Virus record (IMG/VR): IMGVR_UViG_3300017754_001581
Span: 1-25,635 of that record
Length of the DNA: 25,635 nt
Direction: 5' to 3' (one strand)
Source of the DNA: a virus
Lineage: Duplodnaviria; Caudoviricetes
Shown: positions 1,441-24,872 of the stretch, piece by piece
Position numbering within the stretch: the stretch's first letter is position 1
Layout: every line of letters begins with the position of its first letter
Program-made: the position numbers and the translations under genes
The notes under the pieces: generated by a model
What the model saw: only the letters and a program-made list of their open reading frames with translations
Database searches by the model: none
What the model was told of the DNA's origin: nothing

Positions 1441-2562
1441 GTGGCCGACAAGCCTAAAAACTGGCTGGGAAGAGCCCTCGACGCCGTAGCGGCGACGGAA
1501 ACCAATCCGCTCGCGCTGGCGTGGCGCATGCTCCCGCCGGAAGCGCGCAAGTCGTATGCGAGCCTGCCGAATGCCGTTGCCGAGCTGACGCCGGGCGCGG
1601 CCATCCGCGACACGGTGCAGGCAAGCGGCGACACGGCAAACGCAGTCGCACAGGGGCGTGGATGGGATGCCGCAAGCGGTGTTGCCAACATGCTGACGGC
1701 GGCGGCGGGCGTCCTGCCGGGCGGGAGGCTCATCACCAAGGGCGCAAGGGAACTCGCCCAGCCCATCCGTGCCTATCACGGCAGCCCGCACAATTTCGAC
1801 CGCTTCGATATGTCCAAGATCGGCACAGGCGAGGGCGCGCAGGCTTATGGGCATGGGCTTTACTTTGCGGGCAACGAGGCTGTGGCGAAATCATACAAGA
1901 GCGCTGGGCCGGCGGCATACTCCGCAGTCGACGATGTTAACAAGCGCCTTAGCGCGCTTGCCAAGGAGATGGACGCCAACAGCAACGGCTACCGTAACTG
2001 GAGAGATCCAGTTTTGGGGGAAAAGCTTGCGGCGGAGTATGACGCGCTCATGGCGAAGCGCCGCGACCTCGGACACATGTACGAGGTCAACATCCACGCC
2101 GACCCGGCTAAGTTCCTCGATTGGGATAAGCCGCTGAGTGCGCAAAGCGCGCCCGTGCAGAAGGCGTTGGAGCAGTTCGGCATTAGGGCACAGCCGGAAC
2201 AAATGCGCGCATACGACGATGCGTTGTTGGAAGCTCTGACAACCAACAAAAACGTGACTCTTCCGAAGCAGCCCCGCGACCCTCTAGGAAACGACATATA
2301 TCACGGCGGACCGCGCACTGGCGGATTGGGCGGGTATAGCAATCCCGTCGCGGCATCCAACACGCTCCGCGACGCAGGCATCCCCGGCATCAAATACCTA
2401 GACGGCGGCAGCCGAGCGGCGGGCGATGGCTCGCGCAACTACGTCGCCTTTGACGACAAGATAATCGAGATACTCCGCAAGTACGGACTTCTCCCCGTTG
2501 CGGCTGGCGGCGCTGCCATTGCTGCGAACCCGCTCAGTGTCGGCGAAGGGGAGGCTTACTAA
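1441..2562 (+). CDS. ADP-ribosyltransferase-fold protein (ART-PolyVal-like), probably virion-associated
   Basis: AYHGSPHNFDRFDMSKIGTGEGAQAYGHGLYFA, GHMYEVNI and GIPGIKYLD...NYVAFD motifs. Confidence 0.7.
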   Translation: MADKPKNWLGRALDAVAATETNPLALAWRMLPPEARKSYASLPNAVAELTPGAAIRDTVQASGDTANAVAQGRGWDAASGVANMLTAAAGVLPGGRLITKGARELAQPIRAYHGSPHNFDRFDMSKIGTGEGAQAYGHGLYFAGNEAVAKSYKSAGPAAYSAVDDVNKRLSALAKEMDANSNGYRNWRDPVLGEKLAAEYDALMAKRRDLGHMYEVNIHADPAKFLDWDKPLSAQSAPVQKALEQFGIRAQPEQMRAYDDALLEALTTNKNVTLPKQPRDPLGNDIYHGGPRTGGLGGYSNPVAASNTLRDAGIPGIKYLDGGSRAAGDGSRNYVAFDDKIIEILRKYGLLPVAAGGAAIAANPLSVGEGEAY

Positions 2563-3983
2563 TGCGCGGCCCGTTCGCCCTAGGCTTTGCCCAACAGCGC
2601 TCCCGGCCGGTCAACGCCGCGCGGGTGGTGAACCTGTACGCGGAAGCCACGCCCGAGGGCTCGCGCTCCAAGGTGGTGCTGTACGGCACGCCCGGACAGA
2701 AGGAATGGCGCACCATCGGCAACGACACGGTCCGCGCCGGGATCGAGGCGCAGAACGTCTGCTACGTCCTGTCGGGCACGACGCTGTGGAAGACCGAGGC
2801 GGACGGCACCACGACGGCCTGCAGCGGCGACGCGATCCCGCCCACGGGCGCGGCGACCCTCATCAATAACGGGCAGCAGATCGGCTTGCTCGTCGTCCCT
2901 GACTTCTTCGTCATCACCGATACGGTGGTGGTCAAGAACGCCTCAGCGGGCGTGCCGGCTGTCGGCTTCTCATCGGTGTCCTATATCGACGGCTACGGCA
3001 TCCTGACGGTCAACGACTCGTCGGGGCAGTTCTGCATCACCGGCTTGCTAGACTTCGCCACCATCGACGCCCTCGACTTCGCCAGCGCGGAGAGCAGCCC
3101 GGACGGGCTTGTCGGCGTCCTTGTCGATCACCGCGAGATTTGGCTGTTCGGCACCAGCACCATTGAGCCGTGGAGCAACACGGGCGCGTCTCCGTTCCCC
3201 CTTGAGCGCGTGCCGGGTGCCTTGCTTGAGCGCGGGTGCGCGGCGGCCCGCAGCCCCGCCAAGATGGACAATTCGGTGTTCTGGCTGGGGGATGACCGCA
3301 TTGTGTACCGGGCGGACGGCTACCAGCCCATCCGCATCTCCACCCACGCAATCGAGGAAGTGTTGCGCGTTGGCACCGTGAGCGACGCCTACGGCATGAC
3401 GTACTTCCAGGGTGGGCATCACTTCTACATCCTGACCCTGCCAAGCCTCAACCGGACGTTCGCCTACGACCCTGCGGCCTCCGCCGTGGCGGGTGCGCCC
3501 ATCTGGCATGAGCGCCAATCGGGAACCTCGCTGACGCCCGTAGCGTGGAACGTCCAGTGCATGTTCTCCGCCTTCGGCAAGACGCTGGTGGGTCTGCAGG
3601 GCGGCCGGGTCGCGGAACTGGACCTCGATACCTACACCGACCTCGGTGAGCCCATCCGCAGCGTGATCGTCGGCTTCCCGTTCTTCGGGGAAGGCATGCG
3701 CGCCATGATGATCGACTACGAGATTGAGTGCGAGTTCGGCATCGGCCTGAACACCGGGCAGGGCAGCGACCCGCAGGTGATGATGCGCTTCTCAGACGAC
3801 GGCGGCTTCACCTGGAGCCCCGACCGCCGGGCGAGCATGGGCCGCATGGGCGTCCGCCTCATCCGCGCCATGTGGGACCGCCTTGGCGCTTTCCGCCAGC
3901 GCGCGGTCGAAATTTCCATATCAGATCCAGTGAAAAAGGCTTTCTACGGCATGCGGACCAATATCCGGCCGCTTTCCCGATGA
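2562..3983 (+). CDS. Tail hub / packaged DNA stabilization protein, P22 gp10-like
   Basis: 473 aa; FASAESSPD, GCAAARS, FWLGDD..VY, ISTHAIE, SDDGGFTWS, WDRLG..RQR motifs. Confidence 0.85.
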   Translation: MRGPFALGFAQQRSRPVNAARVVNLYAEATPEGSRSKVVLYGTPGQKEWRTIGNDTVRAGIEAQNVCYVLSGTTLWKTEADGTTTACSGDAIPPTGAATLINNGQQIGLLVVPDFFVITDTVVVKNASAGVPAVGFSSVSYIDGYGILTVNDSSGQFCITGLLDFATIDALDFASAESSPDGLVGVLVDHREIWLFGTSTIEPWSNTGASPFPLERVPGALLERGCAAARSPAKMDNSVFWLGDDRIVYRADGYQPIRISTHAIEEVLRVGTVSDAYGMTYFQGGHHFYILTLPSLNRTFAYDPAASAVAGAPIWHERQSGTSLTPVAWNVQCMFSAFGKTLVGLQGGRVAELDLDTYTDLGEPIRSVIVGFPFFGEGMRAMMIDYEIECEFGIGLNTGQGSDPQVMMRFSDDGGFTWSPDRRASMGRMGVRLIRAMWDRLGAFRQRAVEISISDPVKKAFYGMRTNIRPLSR

Positions 3984-13090: not shown

Positions 13091-13365
13091 GAACCCTTTC
13101 CGTTGAAGGCAATACCCACACCGTCGACATCGACGGCACGATCCACACCGTCGCCATTCCAGAAGGCGCCGATCCGAAGGTGGCAATCCCGGCCGCGCTC
13201 AAGGAAGCCGCAGAGGTACGCCCGCCGACCTACCGCGAGCGCCGCCTTGCCGAGTACCCGCCGATCCGTGAACAGCTCGACATGCTGGCGAAGGACCCGG
13301 AGTCGTGGCGCAAGACGATTGCCGCGATCAAGGCCCGCCACCCGAAGGTCGCCGGCAAGGTCTGA
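13087..13365 (+). CDS. Tail fibre assembly/chaperone-like protein
   Basis: YRERRLAEYPPIREQLDML...W...IAAIKARHPK motif; ATGA coupling. Confidence 0.65.
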   Translation: MRTLSVEGNTHTVDIDGTIHTVAIPEGADPKVAIPAALKEAAEVRPPTYRERRLAEYPPIREQLDMLAKDPESWRKTIAAIKARHPKVAGKV

Positions 13366-15995
13366 TGCTCCGCGCGCAGACCCGAGGGCCGCTCCCTGGC
13401 GGCTTGCCCTACGACCCGGCCTTTTTCAGGCCCACGGGCGGCGGCATCGGCGCGTCCTCGGTCATCGGCAATACGGACTATTCGCACTTCCCGCAGATGG
13501 AGTTGGGCGCCCGCCAGCGCCTGCATGAGTTCAACTACGAAGGCCCGGAGCATGGGCAGGACTCAGACGAGGCGGTGTGCCTGCGTCAGTTGGGCTTTGC
13601 CGGTGTAGACCTCACCATCGACGGCACGTTCGCGACGGGCGGTGTCGCTTATATCCCGTCCATTACCCGCATCGTCATCGACTCGGTCTATGACATCTCC
13701 GACGTGACCTTCACGGTCTATGGTTTCGATGAGCTGGGCTCGCCGCAGACGGAGACCATCACCGGCCCGGACGACGGGCGCACGACAGGCACGCTTTACT
13801 TCGCCGACCGCATCACCCGAGTTTCATGCAGCGGAAACACGGCGGGCATGCTGTCCGTTGGCTTTCAGGTCACGCCCGGCAAGATGGCGTACCGCTATTC
13901 CGACAATTTCGGGCGCAACTGGTCCACGCCCAACTATCTGGTCGACGGCAACGACAACCGGGGATACCGCCCGGCGCTCATGTCCTATGCCAGCGGCATC
14001 GTCGTCGCGCTCTACTTCAAGCTGGACATTCCCCTCTACGAGACGGGCAACTTCCGCCGCGTCTCCTACGACAACGGCGTCACCTGGGGGCCGGAGGAGG
14101 AGGTTACATTCACGGGGCTGGATACCGGCGACACGGTGGTCTTCCATTCCCGCTGGCGCCAGCTTGGCGACATAAACGGCGCGGAGGTGCAGGTATCGGT
14201 CGGCGCCTCGGGCAACCGCTCGTACACGCTGCGGACTTCGGACTACGGCGCGACCATTGCCAGCATCAAGTTCGCGGAAGTCGACCACGGCGCCGACAAC
14301 GACCTGATCTATGAAATCGACAGCATCAACGACGGGACGAACACGGTCACGCTCAAGTCCTCGCATGGCGACGTGACCGCCTACTGGCCCGCCAACATGG
14401 CAAGCACGATCACCGGGACGGGTGGAGCGAACGGCAACAGCTATGTCATCTCCAGCTCGTTCGGCGCGGGCCAAACCAGCATCGTCCTGAACGAGCTGGC
14501 CGCCGGCACGGTCAGCGCCTCCTCCAAGATCAAACGCCTATACGGCCCGCGTCAGGTTCTCGATGTCGACACCGGCACGAACACCATCCGGATCGAGGGC
14601 GACCAGACGGCCAACATCATCGCCGGATCGGGCCACTATATGGGCTTCAACGGCTTCTCGTCGGGTGGCGTCGGCTATCTCGACGGTGTCGTGGCGGGCG
14701 CTACGTCCGTCACCTACGAGGCGGGCACGCCCGGCAGGACGGCCATCGTGCTATCGGAGCCGATTCCCACCGGCACCATCGCGCGGCCTTTCTCGCGCCT
14801 GTCCGACGTGCAGTTGGGCGAGTGGGGCATCGGCTGCCTCACGGATCTGAACTGGACGCTGGTTCCCCGGACCAACGCCATGCCCTCCGCGCTGCCCCGG
14901 TTCGTGACCAACGACGGAGGCACCACCGTCTCACTCGTCGGCGCCACGCCCACGGTAGAGGGCTCCTACGTCGCGCTGGAGGTCGATTTCGTGCCGACCG
15001 ATCACGGCATAATGGAGCTTATTACCTGCTACGCCCGCAGCACGACGGACAAGTTCTTTGCCGTCTCCTGCGATGCCCTGCTGGCGCGCACCTCGTCGGA
15101 TTATTTCTGCCCGCCCTGGTACTTCCTCAGCATTCCCGACGACTACAACAACTCCGGATACCACAGCATCGTCTTCCCCAACGGGGACGGCTTTGGCGTC
15201 ATGGCCTATGGTAAGGAAAAGACCGAATCGACGGCTGAGGTTCTATGCCGGGTGGTGGATTTCGGGCCGGTCCTGTCCGATGTGACCTATGCCAGCCGCG
15301 CTCCCACCGCCTCCGACGACATCACCGCAGGCTTCGTGCCTGGCCGCCGCTGGGCGCTCTACGACGGTAGCGACCTCTACACGGCGATTTCGACCGTGGA
15401 GGATGAAGCCTCCTGGTTGAGCGCAATCCCCGGCCCGAAACTCAAGTCCGGCCAGTATTACGGCAACAGCCTGGCGGGCGCCGTGGCGACGCAGGCGATC
15501 ACCGAGAACCGCCTCCACTTCGTTCTGGTAGAGGCCCCCGGCCGCCGGATCAGCGTGCAGGCGCTCGCGGTCTATGTCCGCAGCGCAACCAGCATGACGG
15601 GTGCCGAGCAGTTCAAGATGGCCGTCTACGACGACGACGAAGGAACGCCGGGCGCGAAACTCTGGGATGCCGGGACGGGCACCTTCACCGGCTCGGCAGG
15701 CAATCAGCGCCTTGAGGTTGAGGAGACAGTCGGCCCCGGCCGCTTCTGGATCGCCTTCATCGCCAACCTGAACGGCGGCGGCGCGATGCCCGGCCTTCCG
15801 AGTTCCGCAAGCGGCGGCTATGGCCAAGGCATCATCGGATATACCGGCGGCAACTACGCCAGCTTTGTCCGCTACGTCTACAGCGACCAGACCATCCCGA
15901 GCTGGGCGGCCTACACACTGCCCGACCCGGCACCGGCCGTCACCTACAACGACAGCACCGGCAACGCGATCCAGTTGGTTTTCCAAGTTGAGTAA
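13365..15995 (+). CDS. Asp-box (BNR/sialidase-like) beta-propeller tail protein
   Basis: SDNFGRNW, SYDNGVTW, TSDYGAT, TNDGGTT Asp-box-like motifs; TGATG coupling at 13365. Confidence 0.65.
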   Translation: MLRAQTRGPLPGGLPYDPAFFRPTGGGIGASSVIGNTDYSHFPQMELGARQRLHEFNYEGPEHGQDSDEAVCLRQLGFAGVDLTIDGTFATGGVAYIPSITRIVIDSVYDISDVTFTVYGFDELGSPQTETITGPDDGRTTGTLYFADRITRVSCSGNTAGMLSVGFQVTPGKMAYRYSDNFGRNWSTPNYLVDGNDNRGYRPALMSYASGIVVALYFKLDIPLYETGNFRRVSYDNGVTWGPEEEVTFTGLDTGDTVVFHSRWRQLGDINGAEVQVSVGASGNRSYTLRTSDYGATIASIKFAEVDHGADNDLIYEIDSINDGTNTVTLKSSHGDVTAYWPANMASTITGTGGANGNSYVISSSFGAGQTSIVLNELAAGTVSASSKIKRLYGPRQVLDVDTGTNTIRIEGDQTANIIAGSGHYMGFNGFSSGGVGYLDGVVAGATSVTYEAGTPGRTAIVLSEPIPTGTIARPFSRLSDVQLGEWGIGCLTDLNWTLVPRTNAMPSALPRFVTNDGGTTVSLVGATPTVEGSYVALEVDFVPTDHGIMELITCYARSTTDKFFAVSCDALLARTSSDYFCPPWYFLSIPDDYNNSGYHSIVFPNGDGFGVMAYGKEKTESTAEVLCRVVDFGPVLSDVTYASRAPTASDDITAGFVPGRRWALYDGSDLYTAISTVEDEASWLSAIPGPKLKSGQYYGNSLAGAVATQAITENRLHFVLVEAPGRRISVQALAVYVRSATSMTGAEQFKMAVYDDDEGTPGAKLWDAGTGTFTGSAGNQRLEVEETVGPGRFWIAFIANLNGGGAMPGLPSSASGGYGQGIIGYTGGNYASFVRYVYSDQTIPSWAAYTLPDPAPAVTYNDSTGNAIQLVFQVE

Positions 15996-16001
15996 ATGAG
16001 T

Positions 16002-16079
16002 AAAGCAAGCGGCCCCCGACGATGCGCCACACCGCCGGGAGCCTGACCACCACCGACCCCAAGGAGGCCGGCAATGGCT
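16002..16079 (-). ncRNA. Predicted cis-antisense sRNA (SymR-like architecture) covering RBS and start of first lysis gene
   Basis: Two hairpins (16046-16078, 16011-16043) whose 8 mismatches on + are all A/C, i.e. G-U pairs on -; promoter immediately upstream; U-rich tail. Confidence 0.7.
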
Positions 16080-16403
16080 GAGGAGAGCATGAGCGAGAAC
16101 GGACGCAGAGTCAGCCTTGGGGTGCAGGCCTACCGGTGGCTTGTCGCCACAGGCCTAGGGCTTCTGGTCCTCCTGTCGCAGCGGACGCTTGCGGGAATCG
16201 ATGAAACGGCGGCGTCCGTCCGGGACCTGAAATCACAGGTCGCCACCATGCAGGGCACCACGGAAAGCCGGTTCAATGCCCATGCCCAGCGGCTCGACAT
16301 GGTCGACCGCCGCAACGACACGCAGGACACCAAGATCGACGGCCTTTGGCAGCGCCTGTGGAGCTTTCAGTCCGGGCCGAACAACCCGAGAGGCACGCCA
16401 TGA
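16074..16403 (+). CDS. Lysis-cassette membrane protein (holin-like; 1 TM plus coiled coil)
   Basis: AAGGAGG RBS; TM WLVATGLGLLVLLS; ATGA-coupled to endolysin. Confidence 0.6.
   Translation: MAEESMSENGRRVSLGVQAYRWLVATGLGLLVLLSQRTLAGIDETAASVRDLKSQVATMQGTTESRFNAHAQRLDMVDRRNDTQDTKIDGLWQRLWSFQSGPNNPRGTP
16086..16114 (-). promoter_or_regulatory. Antisense sigma70 promoter embedded in lysis gene 5' end
   Basis: CTGACT-17-CATGCT; predicted +1 at A 16079, at the base of hairpin 1. Confidence 0.6.
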
Positions 16404-16918
16404 GCGACGACGTTGACGACCTGATCTCCGACATCATCCGCCGCGAGGGCGGCTATGTGAACCACCCGGACGACCGGGGCGGCCCGACCAACTACGGGAT
16501 CACGCAGGCCACCCTGTCGGAGTGGCGGCGCCAGCCCGTGACCGAGTTCCAGGTCAAGACCCTGTCGGAAGGCGAGGCCCGCGAGATCTACCGCGACCGC
16601 TACGTCACGAAGCCGGGCTTCGACGCCATCCCCGACGCGGGCGTGAAGGCGTTCCTGATCGACTACGGCGTCAACTCCGGGCCGGGAACGGCGGTCAAGG
16701 CCCTGCAAAGCGTGCTGGGCGTGCAGGCTGACGGCGCGTTCGGCCCCCAGAGCAAGGCAGCCCTCGCCAAGGTCACGAATTGGCCGGCGCTCTACAATGC
16801 GCTGATCGCCCAGCGTTCGCAGTTCTTCCTCGGCATCGTGGGCCGGGATCACTCTCAGGCCGTGTTCGCCCTTGGGTGGCGCAACCGCATTGCCGAGTTC
16901 AAGCCGAGGATTGCCTGA
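16400..16918 (+). CDS. Endolysin, glycoside hydrolase family 108 with C-terminal peptidoglycan-binding domain
   Basis: REGGYVNHPDDRGGPTNYGIT, DYGVNSGPG, DGAFGPQS, FALGWRNR motifs. Confidence 0.92.
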   Translation: MSDDVDDLISDIIRREGGYVNHPDDRGGPTNYGITQATLSEWRRQPVTEFQVKTLSEGEAREIYRDRYVTKPGFDAIPDAGVKAFLIDYGVNSGPGTAVKALQSVLGVQADGAFGPQSKAALAKVTNWPALYNALIAQRSQFFLGIVGRDHSQAVFALGWRNRIAEFKPRIA

Positions 16919-17472
16919 TGCCCCTCATCCCCCTGCTGCTCGGCCTCGCGCCGACCGTCGCTTCATGGCTCATGGGCGACAAGACCGGCAAAGCCGTGGA
17001 GACGGTGACGGGCATCGCCCGCGACATTCTCGGCACCACGGACGCGGACGGGATCGAGAGGGCGGTCGCGGCCGACCCGAACCTCGCACTGCAATTCAAA
17101 ATGGCAGTTTTGCAGGCTGAGGCCGACGCCCGCGCGCATACCGAGCGGCTGCGGCAACAGGATCTCGACGCGGTGAAGGCCCAGCTCGCTGACGTGGCGA
17201 GCGCCCGTTCCCAGACCGTCGATCTAGCCAAGGCGGGATCATCGATCGCCTGGAGCGCCCCGGCCATCAGCACGCTCGTCACTGTCGCCTTCATGGGTGC
17301 CCTGTGGGTGGTCGTGACGCAGGAAATCCCGGTCAACTCGCGCGAGATCGCCTACATCCTGCTGGGCACGCTGGCGGCCAAATGGGGCGACGTGGTGGCC
17401 TATTGGGTCGGCTCGTCCAGCGGATCGGCGGCGAAGGATGCCACCCTACGGGCGGCTGTCAGTCAGAAGTAG
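16918..17472 (+). CDS. Holin-like membrane protein (3TM/GTA-holin-like)
   Basis: N-terminal hydrophobic helix, DVASAR motif, two C-terminal TMs, YWVGSSSGSAAKD. Confidence 0.65.
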   Translation: MPLIPLLLGLAPTVASWLMGDKTGKAVETVTGIARDILGTTDADGIERAVAADPNLALQFKMAVLQAEADARAHTERLRQQDLDAVKAQLADVASARSQTVDLAKAGSSIAWSAPAISTLVTVAFMGALWVVVTQEIPVNSREIAYILLGTLAAKWGDVVAYWVGSSSGSAAKDATLRAAVSQK

Positions 17473-17745: not shown

Positions 17746-17810
17746 GGGTTGAACGAATTGCAAAGACTGTTACCCCGGCGCCGACTTCACTCGGCGCCGG
17801 GTTTATTTTT
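17746..17810 (+). ncRNA. Predicted ~65-nt small RNA
   Basis: Promoter at 17711-17739, AU-rich 5' segment, intrinsic terminator at 17774-17810; no complete ORF inside. Confidence 0.45.
17774..17810 (+). terminator. Rho-independent terminator (probably also ends the leftward operon)
   Basis: Perfect 11-bp stem CCCGGCGCCGA/TCGGCGCCGGG, 6-nt loop, then TTTATTTTT. Confidence 0.85.
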
Positions 17811-18909: not shown

Positions 18910-19269
18910 CTATTGGTCCTTATGGAAGTGGAGTGGCTCGCTGCGTGGTCTATTGCGGCAGCGTCCTTTATTTTTCTTATCGGCCATGTTTTCGGCGTGT
19001 GTGCCCAGTCGCAGGTGATTAACGTTGATGCAGCTTGGAACGTCGCATTTGTGAAGTACGAACAGACCGGCAGGAATGGGACCTCTTGCGTCCACCCACG
19101 CCATACGGTGAGCGGGCTCTTGCTTCCCCCGCCATGATACTTTCCCGTACCCCATGTCACCGGCTGTCGCCCCCATCCATAGAACGCATCCGCTGTTCGG
19201 TTCGGGAATAGAAAAGCAATCAAGCCGCTCCCGTAAAGAAGCAAACCAAGGGCTACCTCTCTTGGGCAT
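18910..19269 (-). CDS. HNH homing endonuclease (HNH_3 type)
   Basis: GCVLWMG, GYG, AHRMAW...GPIP.GL.VLHKCD.PSCIN.NHL.LGT..EN..D. Confidence 0.9.
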   Translation of the reverse strand: MPKRGSPWFASLRERLDCFSIPEPNSGCVLWMGATAGDMGYGKVSWRGKQEPAHRMAWVDARGPIPAGLFVLHKCDVPSCINVNHLRLGTHAENMADKKNKGRCRNRPRSEPLHFHKDQ

Positions 19270-22418: not shown

Positions 22419-22720
22419 GCCTGCCTCCCTTCGCGAACCATCGCCGCCACGTTCCGCAGGGGCAGGGGGCCGATCACGTCGCCATCCTTGAAGGCCACGA
22501 TGGAGCCGACGATGCCGTCGCGCTCGCCGCTCTCGACTTCGCCGTAGTGGTCCACGGCCTCGTTGAGATTGAAGAACGTCTCCGCGCTCCACAGGACCTT
22601 CTGGAGGAGCCTGCTGTGCTTGCCGACCGTGACCACCCAGGTATCGGCGGTGCGGACGGTGACGCGGGCATCCCCACGCGGCGCGCTGTCTAGAACGGGG
22701 GAGAGGCTGTCGGGGGCCAT
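22415..22720 (-). CDS. Hypothetical protein
   Basis: AGGAG RBS; starts MAPDS. Confidence 0.65.
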   Translation of the reverse strand: MAPDSLSPVLDSAPRGDARVTVRTADTWVVTVGKHSRLLQKVLWSAETFFNLNEAVDHYGEVESGERDGIVGSIVAFKDGDVIGPLPLRNVAAMVREGRQA

Positions 22721-22731
22721 GTTATGCTCCT
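22706..22731 (-). repeat. 26-bp exact direct repeat, copy A (AGGAGCATAACATGGCCCCCGACAGC)
   Basis: Identical to 23317-23342. Confidence 0.9.
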
Positions 22732-23074: not shown

Positions 23075-23331
23075 CACGCGGCCTCGTCCAGGAGGCCAAG
23101 ATCAGCGGCCTCGATGGCGCGCGGCTCGGCGTGGTTGATCGCGTTCTCCAGCGCGATGGACAGGGCGCAGGCGTCGGCCATGCCGAGGATAACATTGAAC
23201 TCGCCACCCGTCGCGTTGTCGCCAAACTTGAGGTTGACGAACGCGTGGTGATTGTCGGCGGGGAACCCGGTGGCGCGGATGCCCGGCTTGCCGTCGCGCT
23301 TTACGCTGAAGGTCTTGCTGTCGGGGGCCAT
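23074..23331 (-). CDS. Hypothetical protein
   Basis: AAGGAG RBS before ATG 23331; starts MAPDS. Confidence 0.65.
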   Translation of the reverse strand: MAPDSKTFSVKRDGKPGIRATGFPADNHHAFVNLKFGDNATGGEFNVILGMADACALSIALENAINHAEPRAIEAADLGLLDEAA

Positions 23332-23342
23332 GTTATGCTCCT
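23317..23342 (-). repeat. 26-bp exact direct repeat, copy B
   Basis: Identical to 22706-22731. Confidence 0.9.
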
Positions 23343-24641: not shown

Positions 24642-24872
24642 ATGAGCACACACCTCCCCATCGACTTCGACAAGGCAAAAAAAGCCTACGGGACCATCAA
24701 GGCATGGTCCGACCGGCTTGAGGTTCCCTACACGACGGTCATCGGCTGGCGTGACTCTGGCGCCGTACCCCGGTGGCGTCTCTCCCATGTTGCTGGGGTT
24801 GCCCGCGAGGATGGGAAGGACATCTTTGGCAAGGCGGTGAAGGCCGCCCCCAAGCGGAGGACCGCCGCATGA
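24642..24872 (+). CDS. Cro-like HTH regulator (carph-isopro-like)
   Basis: GTIKAWSDRLEVPYTTVIGWRDSGAVP HTH; first gene after PR. Confidence 0.75.
   Translation: MSTHLPIDFDKAKKAYGTIKAWSDRLEVPYTTVIGWRDSGAVPRWRLSHVAGVAREDGKDIFGKAVKAAPKRRTAA

What the first reader, a model, noticed from the sequence alone, without database searches (positions are those of the whole stretch)
16002..16114. SymR-like antisense RNA gating the phage lysis cassette
Seen: two adjacent stems, 13 bp (16046-16078) and 14 bp (16011-16043). All 8 non-Watson-Crick positions are A/C on + and so G-U on -, meaning only the antisense strand folds fully. A minus-strand promoter CTGACT-17-CATGCT lies in codons 5-14 of the first lysis gene and puts +1 at 16079, the base of stem 1. 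Stem 1 exposes UCCUUGG in its loop, complementary to the AAGGA of the RBS. Stem 2 is followed by GCUUGCUUU (terminator-like). Predicted length is ~78 nt. Known: this is the layout of the type I antitoxin SymR, whose promoter lies in the symE 5' coding region and which covers its RBS. Inference: a type I toxin-antitoxin-style RNA switch sets holin/endolysin expression and lysis timing. This is the best candidate for an undescribed system in the window.
Basis: partly seen in the sequence, partly recalled or inferred. Interest (0 to 1): 0.85.

Follow-up and report, generated by a model that had tools for sequence, protein, structure and literature searches.

The report
Antisense RNA switch heading phage lysis
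Just in front of this uncultured phage's cell-bursting genes sits a conserved two-hairpin element that folds only on the opposite strand and likely makes a small antisense RNA that would hold back lysis, a known type of switch that related phages keep in place even when they swap in unrelated lysis genes.

Summary
The minus strand of 16079-16002 folds into two hairpins (-52.1 kcal/mol, z -5.4; plus strand z 0). It is the most stable and most strand-biased of 4260 windows in the contig.

The element is a copy of a portable cassette found in hundreds of phage contigs. The cassette covaries strongly and carries a -10 box inside the first codons (46 of 70 copies against 6 of 221 control starts). 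It is a sub-threshold relative of Rfam symR, RepX/R1162 and PtaRNA1. A sibling phage's copy scores 40.2 bits against symR (cut-off 61); the window's copy does not hit symR. Its commonest named clients are HNH-type nucleases and antirepressors; lysis genes are rare.

New here: eight distinct leaders keep it at the head of the lysis module, before two unrelated holin-position genes and four endolysin families. In five it drives an 11-19-codon leader peptide that stops on the lysis gene's start codon.

Against: no RNA was observed, most homologues lack it, the window's promoter is weak, and the holin identity is inferred. Verdict: new variant of a known kind. An antisense brake on lysis-gene translation is likely; a lysis timer is plausible but untested.

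The parts
16002..16079 (-). Predicted ~78-nt cis-antisense RNA (two hairpins and a short U-rich tail), covering the RBS and start codon of the first lysis-module gene
   Evidence: Fold z -5.4; CM score 74.7 bits, but the window was a model seed; RNA not observed
16046..16078 (-). Stem-loop 1, 13-15 bp, complementary to RBS AAGGAGG (16061-16067) and ATG (16074-16076); G-U pairs become A/C mismatches on the mRNA
   Evidence: 29/30 and 27/30 identical in L083 and L085
16011..16043 (-). Stem-loop 2, 14-15 bp, predicted intrinsic terminator followed by GCUUGCUUU
   Evidence: against L083 2 double and 2 single changes, against L155 4 double and 5 single, over 14 pairs all kept
16086..16091 (-). Predicted -10 box CATGCT; overlaps the second ATG (16089)
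   Evidence: Family register ATG+12; same in L083 and L085; TACGCT or TACCCT in the other five lysis leaders; SymR uses CATTCT
16109..16114 (-). Predicted -35 box CTGACT in the R-V-S codons
   Evidence: RVS kept in 9 of 10 protein clusters that begin MAE[ED]SM; also present in L086, which lacks the hairpins
16074..16403 (+). First lysis-module gene, 109 aa, holin position; short hydrophobic stretch and weak XhlA likeness; 5-residue cassette stub MAEES fused in frame to a second ATG at 16089
   Evidence: Pfam XhlA E 0.0012, 19.4 bits, below the 34.7 cut-off; no 19-residue window above 1.6 hydropathy; named homologues are from Reyranella and an unclassified Rhodospirillales
16400..16918 (+). Endolysin (glycosyl hydrolase 108 with PG_binding_3), start overlapping the upstream stop (ATGA)
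16918..17472 (+). 184-aa membrane protein, third gene of the module, start overlapping the endolysin stop
   Evidence: phrog_1544, unknown function; hydropathy
13305..15995 (+). Large upstream gene (putative tail or receptor-binding protein), ends 15 nt before stem 2; its 3' end is unrelated in L083 and L085
   Evidence: function inferred from position only
17774..17801 (+). Terminator-like hairpin that would end the rightward late transcript after the lysis module
   Evidence: consensus scan only

Best explanation
A SymR/RepX-type cassette sits at the start of the phage's lysis module and likely makes a ~78-nt antisense RNA that would pair with the ribosome-binding site and start codon of the first lysis gene and so likely repress its translation. 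Shown: the strand-specific fold, the conserved pairing, the promoter-like boxes in the first codons, and retention before unrelated lysis genes. Inferred steps: (1) Host RNA polymerase fires the embedded minus-strand promoter from 16079 and stops at stem 2. (2) G-U pairs let the antisense RNA fold while the mRNA leader stays weakly folded. (3) The lysis genes have no promoter of their own and arrive on late read-through transcripts, which the RNA titrates. (4) Repression passes downstream by translational coupling: directly here (in-frame stub, ATGA overlap with the endolysin), and through an 11-19-codon leader peptide in five relatives. The effect would be a threshold: little lysis protein until late mRNA outnumbers the antisense pool, which would suppress leak and could delay lysis.
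For: Fold: antisense z -3.06 to -5.40 in 8 of 8 distinct lysis leaders; sense z between -1.43 and +2.07 in 7 of 8 (L102 -2.65). Covariation: 73 distinct family members, 93.6% of cells paired, 19 of 25 pairs with double changes, 0 of 500 shuffles as high, slid controls 39-47% (alignment fitted to the model). The unfitted 10-sequence alignment gives 91.7% paired, with 8 of 11 stem-2 pairs showing double changes. Promoter: TAnnnT at ATG+12/13 in 46 of 70 copies against 6 of 221 control starts, outside the search pattern and model; an xAxxxT hexamer 6-7 nt from the predicted +1 in 8 of 8 lysis leaders. Homology: symR 40.2 bits, E 1.3e-4, full model, antisense strand, for L082; other copies reach RF00043 52, symR 47.1 and PtaRNA1 41.3 bits. 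Retention: related phage G005 (one virion protein 77% identical) has no homologue of the three window lysis genes yet has the cassette at the same hinge. It is present in 5 of 11 loci of that second, LydA-like holin family. Endolysins behind it belong to GH108, GH24 lysozyme, GH19 and PF11860. Leader peptides of 14, 14, 14, 11 and 19 codons all stop on the lysis ATG. Ten protein clusters keep 7-8 of the first 8 residues while the body ranges from 35 to 77 of 82. A sense -10 precedes stem 2 in 21 of 26 nuclease clients but 0 of 5 lysis leaders tested. Where hairpins are lost or decayed the -10 is too (L086, L374).
Against: No RNA was observed. The cassette is optional: found at the gene start in 6 of 59 loci of the window's gene family (two loci lacked enough upstream DNA) and weakly in 1 of 18 Reyranella-genus genomes carrying the gene. 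It is absent from the complete relative G008. The window's promoter has only 7 of 12 consensus matches. The window's own copy does not hit symR even at E 10. At DNA level codons 1-14 (38/42, 39/42) are barely more conserved than codons 15-97 (88%, 86%). The eight leaders probably share one ancestor, so they are not eight independent gains. The second ATG at 16089 has a possible RBS of its own (GAGGAG, 3-nt spacing) just outside the predicted RNA and might bypass control. Holin function of the first gene is not shown.
Confidence: 0.7

Rival explanations
1. Inherited relic: the cassette was left behind by a lost nuclease or antirepressor gene and is now kept only as a ribosome-binding site, with stem 2 acting as a plain terminator for leftward transcripts; little or no regulatory RNA is made.
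For: Nucleases are the commonest named clients (27 of 82). HNH genes lie in and beside these lysis modules, one with its own cassette (L084:3391-3471). Lysis copies lack the sense -10. The short leader peptides look like stubs. Many relatives do without it. L086 and L119 keep only the RBS-like part.
Against: A terminator alone does not need stem 1, its G-U bias, or a -10 box in register in 8 of 8 leaders. Stem 2 keeps all 14 compared pairs through 4 and 9 changes. The five leader peptides differ in sequence and length yet all stop on the lysis ATG.
Confidence: 0.17
2. An mRNA structure on the plus strand hides the RBS, or sets a dual-start ratio between Met1 and Met6, as the lambda S107/S105 holin leader does (lambda comparison recalled, not from a call).
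For: Two in-frame ATGs 15 nt apart in the window, L083 and L085. The predicted mRNA fold pairs part of the RBS.
Against: Plus-strand folding is no better than shuffles (z -0.03 and +0.25; +1.1 and +2.1 in L083 and L085). The conserved pairs include G-U on the minus strand. In five leaders the first ATG is out of frame with the lysis gene, so no dual-start protein pair is possible.
Confidence: 0.07
3. The RNA is made but works mainly in trans, on other genes of the phage or host.
For: SymR was reported in about 10-fold excess and unusually stable, and its authors raised extra functions (PMC1891008 passages).
Against: No second copy above 15 bits in the window and one copy in G005. Perfect cis complementarity over RBS and start codon explains the layout.
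Confidence: 0.05

Closest known systems
SymR/symE of E. coli (Rfam RF01809; PMC1891008, passages read)
   Same: 77-nt cis-antisense RNA opposite the gene's 5' end, promoter embedded in the coding sequence, -10 CATTCT against CATGCT here. The sibling copy L082 aligns to the full model at 40.2 bits.
   Different: Below the 61-bit cut-off; the window's copy has no hit. The target is a lysis-module gene, not SymE. No dedicated sense promoter is seen. Some copies use a coupled leader peptide.
RepX / R1162 antisense RNA of IncQ plasmids (Rfam RF00043; PMC8136791, passages read)
   Same: 75-nt RNA over the RBS and start codon of repA, two stem-loops with a GUUA spacer (GUCA or GUUA here). It is the window's best Rfam match, 24 bits; family members reach 52 bits. 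The match is on the mRNA strand, so the Rfam consensus appears to be written in mRNA sense.
   Different: Below the 55-bit cut-off; controls plasmid copy number, not lysis.
PtaRNA1 (Rfam RF01811; model hits only, paper not read)
   Same: Family members score 33-41 bits on the antisense strand.
   Different: Below the 47-bit cut-off; no hit for any lysis copy searched.
P22 sar RNA (review passages PMC12197685, PMC5415839)
   Same: 68-69-nt phage antisense RNA that blocks translation initiation of an antirepressor; 6 of 82 clients of this cassette are antirepressor or Rha genes.
   Different: No sar model appeared in any of the five Rfam scans (and the window rescan counted as 100); different target.
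PAK_P4as15 of Pseudomonas phage PAK_P4 (PMC5563952 and PMC12197685, passages read)
   Same: A phage antisense RNA proposed to repress a lysis gene and delay lysis.
   Different: About 550 nt, matches the endolysin gene, function only proposed; not described as a short structured cassette over a start codon.

Membership tests
Rfam symR (RF01809) | Score at or above the 61-bit gathering cut-off | tested here: not met
   Window: no hit at E 10; sibling L082 40.2 bits
Rfam symR (RF01809) | Target gene encodes a SymE-family protein | tested here: not met
   Pfam and PHROG scans show only weak XhlA and no SymE
Rfam Plasmid_R1162 / RepX (RF00043) | Score at or above 55 bits and a repA target | tested here: not met
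   24 bits, E 0.06 on 501 nt; phage lysis-module target
SymR/RepX-type cis-antisense RNAs (works-like) | About 75-80 nt, two stem-loops folding on the strand opposite the gene | tested here: met
SymR/RepX-type cis-antisense RNAs (works-like) | Covers the RBS and start codon of the target | tested here: met
   AAGGAGG 16061-16067 and ATG 16074 lie within stem-loop 1
SymR/RepX-type cis-antisense RNAs (works-like) | Own promoter embedded in the target's first codons | tested here: inconclusive
   Clear for the family (46 of 70 against 6 of 221) and in register in 8 of 8 lysis leaders; weak for the window alone (7 of 12)
SymR/RepX-type cis-antisense RNAs (works-like) | RNA is expressed and represses translation | not testable with these tools
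   Only assembled contigs were available; they show neither strand nor ends
Type I toxin-antitoxin system | Target protein is toxic on its own and the RNA neutralises it | not testable with these tools
   Holin-like role inferred from position and weak matches only
Type I toxin-antitoxin system | Stand-alone two-gene locus with its own sense promoter | tested here: not met
   No sense -10 before stem 2 in 0 of 5 lysis leaders tested, against 21 of 26 nuclease clients; the gene sits in a late operon
Holin (XhlA family, PF10779) | Score at or above the 34.7-bit cut-off | tested here: not met
   19.4 bits, E 0.0012

The most novel reading that the evidence does not exclude
A lineage of Reyranella-type podophages has captured a SymR/RepX-type cassette as a plug-in lysis timer. 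A host-polymerase antisense RNA sets a threshold that late mRNA must exceed. The cassette, with its promoter-carrying leader peptide, is the fixed hinge onto which unrelated holins and four endolysin families are swapped. Lysis time would then be set by RNA titration rather than by holin-antiholin protein ratios.
Probability: 0.4. Interest if true: 0.8.

Novelty: new variant of a known kind. Interest (0 to 1): 0.6.

Why it matters
Lysis timing is normally explained by holin proteins and antiholins (established knowledge, recalled). The one antisense precedent I found is an untested proposal for a ~550-nt RNA in PAK_P4. A compact 78-nt switch with its promoter hidden in the first codons makes RNA-level control of lysis directly testable: two silent changes in the -10 box in a reporter suffice. 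It would also be a ready-made part for tunable lysis. The results further tie three separate Rfam families (symR, Plasmid_R1162, PtaRNA1) to one portable cassette that is common in phages.

Tried and rejected
Expression: no RNA holder listed among 24 runs. Four RNA-guess runs and four DNA runs were laid as contigs and show no strand or ends. In one RNA-guess run, contigs at least 80% alike piled up over 16008-16095 (summed depth 104-158 against at most 11 beside it). These may be other organisms' copies or DNA, and a conserved endolysin motif piled up more, so I draw nothing from it.

blastn of the element against 50,697 phage and 72,556 plasmid records gave only short matches; none covered more than 34% of the query among the 30 rows listed for each. 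The single-protein locus search and an exact 21-nt pattern found nothing in viral contigs. A 19-nt RBS-plus-start pattern gave 42 loci, of which only the L155 contig had the cassette at the match. None of 80 GH108 endolysin loci had a copy above 18 bits. Two other strand-biased windows in the contig (22700-22790, 20040-20130) were not significant (z -0.9 and -1.8).

Lifestyle is unresolved: no tyrosine or serine integrase in G008 (complete, lacks the cassette) or G005 (71% complete); L081 and L083 records could not be searched. The L119 row was mis-anchored and is not used. The ESM Atlas gave no named family for the window's first gene.

Literature: ten searches (listings and abstract starts only, except papers named as read) found no report of such a cassette on a holin start. 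The library lacks most subscription papers. PMC10690425 (candidate viral RNAs) has 20 mentions of holin in one supplementary table, of which I saw one row; three of its files could not be searched, so this motif may be listed there unnamed. bioRxiv supplements were closed.

Full report
Setting. The window is a 25.6-kb virus record. It has rightward virion genes (phage stabilisation protein) and leftward early genes (ERF recombinase, HNH nucleases, methyltransferase). The named homologues of the gene under study are mostly from Reyranella, so the host is probably an alphaproteobacterium of that group (inference). The rightward block ends with a 109-aa gene (16074-16403), a GH108 endolysin (16400-16918) and a 184-aa membrane protein (16918-17472), each overlapping the next. 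The first gene is only weakly XhlA-like (19.4 bits, cut-off 34.7). It has no 19-residue window above 1.6 hydropathy and no named Atlas family. I call it the holin-position gene; holin function is not shown.

Observation. The minus strand of 16079-16002 folds at -52.1 kcal/mol (z -5.40, 0 of 200 shuffles), the plus strand at -23.5 (z -0.03). It is the most stable and most strand-biased of 4260 windows. The promoter boxes are where stated but score 7 of 12 and were not listed by the scan.

A portable family. Pattern scans of viral contigs gave 48 and 120 loci; the tool estimated about 360 stretches for the second. A covariance model from 10 copies matched 86 places in 100 of the 120 loci. On the 73 distinct rows, 93.6% of cells pair and 19 of 25 pairs show double changes, above all 500 shuffles and all slid controls. 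That alignment is fitted to the model, and the base of stem 1 was fixed by the search pattern. Stem 2 was not, and it also covaries in the unfitted alignment (8 of 11 pairs). For the promoter test I used 64 distinct hits of 30 bits or more (12 duplicates and 10 weaker rows dropped) plus 6 earlier copies. TAnnnT lies at ATG+12 or +13 on the antisense strand in 46 of 70, against 6 of 221 control starts. Some of the 70 are related to each other. Of 82 downstream proteins, 27 are HNH, endonuclease VII or GIY-YIG nucleases, 6 antirepressor or Rha, 3 RuvC-like, 4 other and 42 without a PHROG hit (some are cut by locus ends). Only one of the 120 loci had a lysis client (L308, the L155 contig). A sense -10 precedes stem 2 in 21 of 26 nuclease clients, 0 of 5 antirepressors, 5 of 39 others and 0 of 5 lysis leaders tested.

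Relation to known RNAs. The window's only notable Rfam match is Plasmid_R1162 at 24 bits (cut-off 55). The sibling copy (L082-L084) aligns to the whole symR model on the antisense strand at 40.2 bits (cut-off 61). Among 20 loci, other copies reach 52 (R1162), 47.1 (symR) and 41.3 bits (PtaRNA1), none at cut-off. SymR is a 77-nt RNA whose promoter is embedded in symE, with -10 CATTCT (PMC1891008, passages). RepX is a 75-nt two-stem RNA over the RBS and start codon of repA (PMC8136791, passages). So the element works like these on anatomy and is probably related to them, but it is a member of none by score or target.

The lysis link. In the window's gene family the cassette is at the gene start in 6 of 59 loci, which are four distinct leaders (window = L081, L082-84, L085, L102). 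It is decayed in 1 of 18 Reyranella-genus genomes that carry the gene (L374). Most other homologues follow directly on the upstream gene, and the complete relative G008 has no copy. A related phage, G005, shares virion genes (up to 77% identity) but none of the three lysis genes. It has the cassette at the same hinge, before a LydA-like holin (Atlas lead 0.90; no Pfam hit) and a lysozyme two ORFs further on. In that second family 5 of 11 loci, 4 of 8 distinct leaders, carry it. All eight full leaders fold on the antisense strand (z -3.06 to -5.40). All have an xAxxxT hexamer 6-7 nt from the predicted start. The endolysins behind them belong to four families. In five leaders a peptide of 11-19 codons starts at or beside the cassette and stops on the lysis gene's ATG; in three the stub is fused in frame. 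In L102 and L387 the predicted RNA covers the RBS but not the ATG. Stem 2 keeps all 14 compared pairs through 4 changes (L083) and 9 changes (L155). Ten protein clusters keep MAE[ED]SMS almost unchanged while the body falls to 35 of 82; their DNA could not be fetched. One low-depth contig shows 17 listed differences, all in 16122-16217 and none in 16042-16121 (weak). These leaders probably descend from one capture, so this shows retention through module swaps, not repeated invention.

Mechanism. Shown: fold, pairing, box positions, retention, coupling geometry. Inferred: host polymerase makes a stable ~78-nt RNA that pairs with the late transcript over the RBS and start codon and blocks initiation. 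The block would spread by translational coupling, so lysis proteins appear only once late mRNA outnumbers the RNA (confidence 0.7 for repression, 0.4 for a real timer). Whether this matters in the lytic cycle or against leak in a carrier state is open, since no integrase was found in the two relatives searched. The main rival is a relic of a nuclease cassette kept as RBS and terminator (0.17). A plus-strand or dual-start reading fits poorly (0.07).

Novelty. The switch type is known. Earlier notes of this scan already report similar cassettes before nucleases (unchecked AI notes, not counted as support); none holds all of the words SymR, antisense and holin. In print I found only PAK_P4as15, a ~550-nt RNA proposed to delay lysis (PMC5563952, passages; review PMC12197685, passages). 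Ten searches of an open-access library found nothing closer. Unread supplements of PMC10690425 may list the motif. Verdict: new variant of a known kind, interest 0.6, limited mainly by the absence of any RNA evidence.

Noticed in passing
L084:3391-3471 (minus) and 3464-3952: A second copy of the cassette in the sibling phage heads an HNH nuclease right after the lysis module, with its own sense -10; the window has a homologous HNH at 18910-19269 without a detectable cassette.
   Followed up: partly
Loci, e.g. L199, L204, L212, L241, L248: Nuclease clients form self-contained units with facing sense and antisense promoters (sense -10 in 21 of 26), unlike antirepressor and lysis clients.
   Followed up: partly
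L379, L380, L381, L387, just upstream of the holin ATG: The predicted -35 (TGGACN, 18-nt spacer) is read from the same bases that form the stop-start junction, so the leader peptide spans exactly the antisense promoter.
   Followed up: partly
Rfam RF00043, window 16010-16081: The Plasmid_R1162 model matches on the mRNA strand in every hit seen, so its consensus appears to be the reverse complement of the RNA.
   Followed up: no
window 1441-2562: 373-aa protein with an ART-PolyVal ADP-ribosyltransferase domain among the virion genes; no homologue found in the related record G005.
   Followed up: no
window 22713-22730 and 23323-23340 (minus): Two early genes start with nearly the same RBS and first codons (GGAGCATAACATGGCCCCCGACAGC), a short repeated translation start.
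   Followed up: no
L083:5019-5336: An HNH gene sits in reverse between the endolysin and the third lysis gene in the sibling phage.
   Followed up: no
L156:323-400 and L162:896-962: Stem-1-only versions of the cassette (18-24 bits) before a small membrane protein and a probable tail protein.
   Followed up: no
window 24642-24872: 76-aa rightward ORF that looks Cro-like by eye, diverging from the early operon; no Pfam or PHROG hit and no repressor gene recognised nearby.
   Followed up: partly
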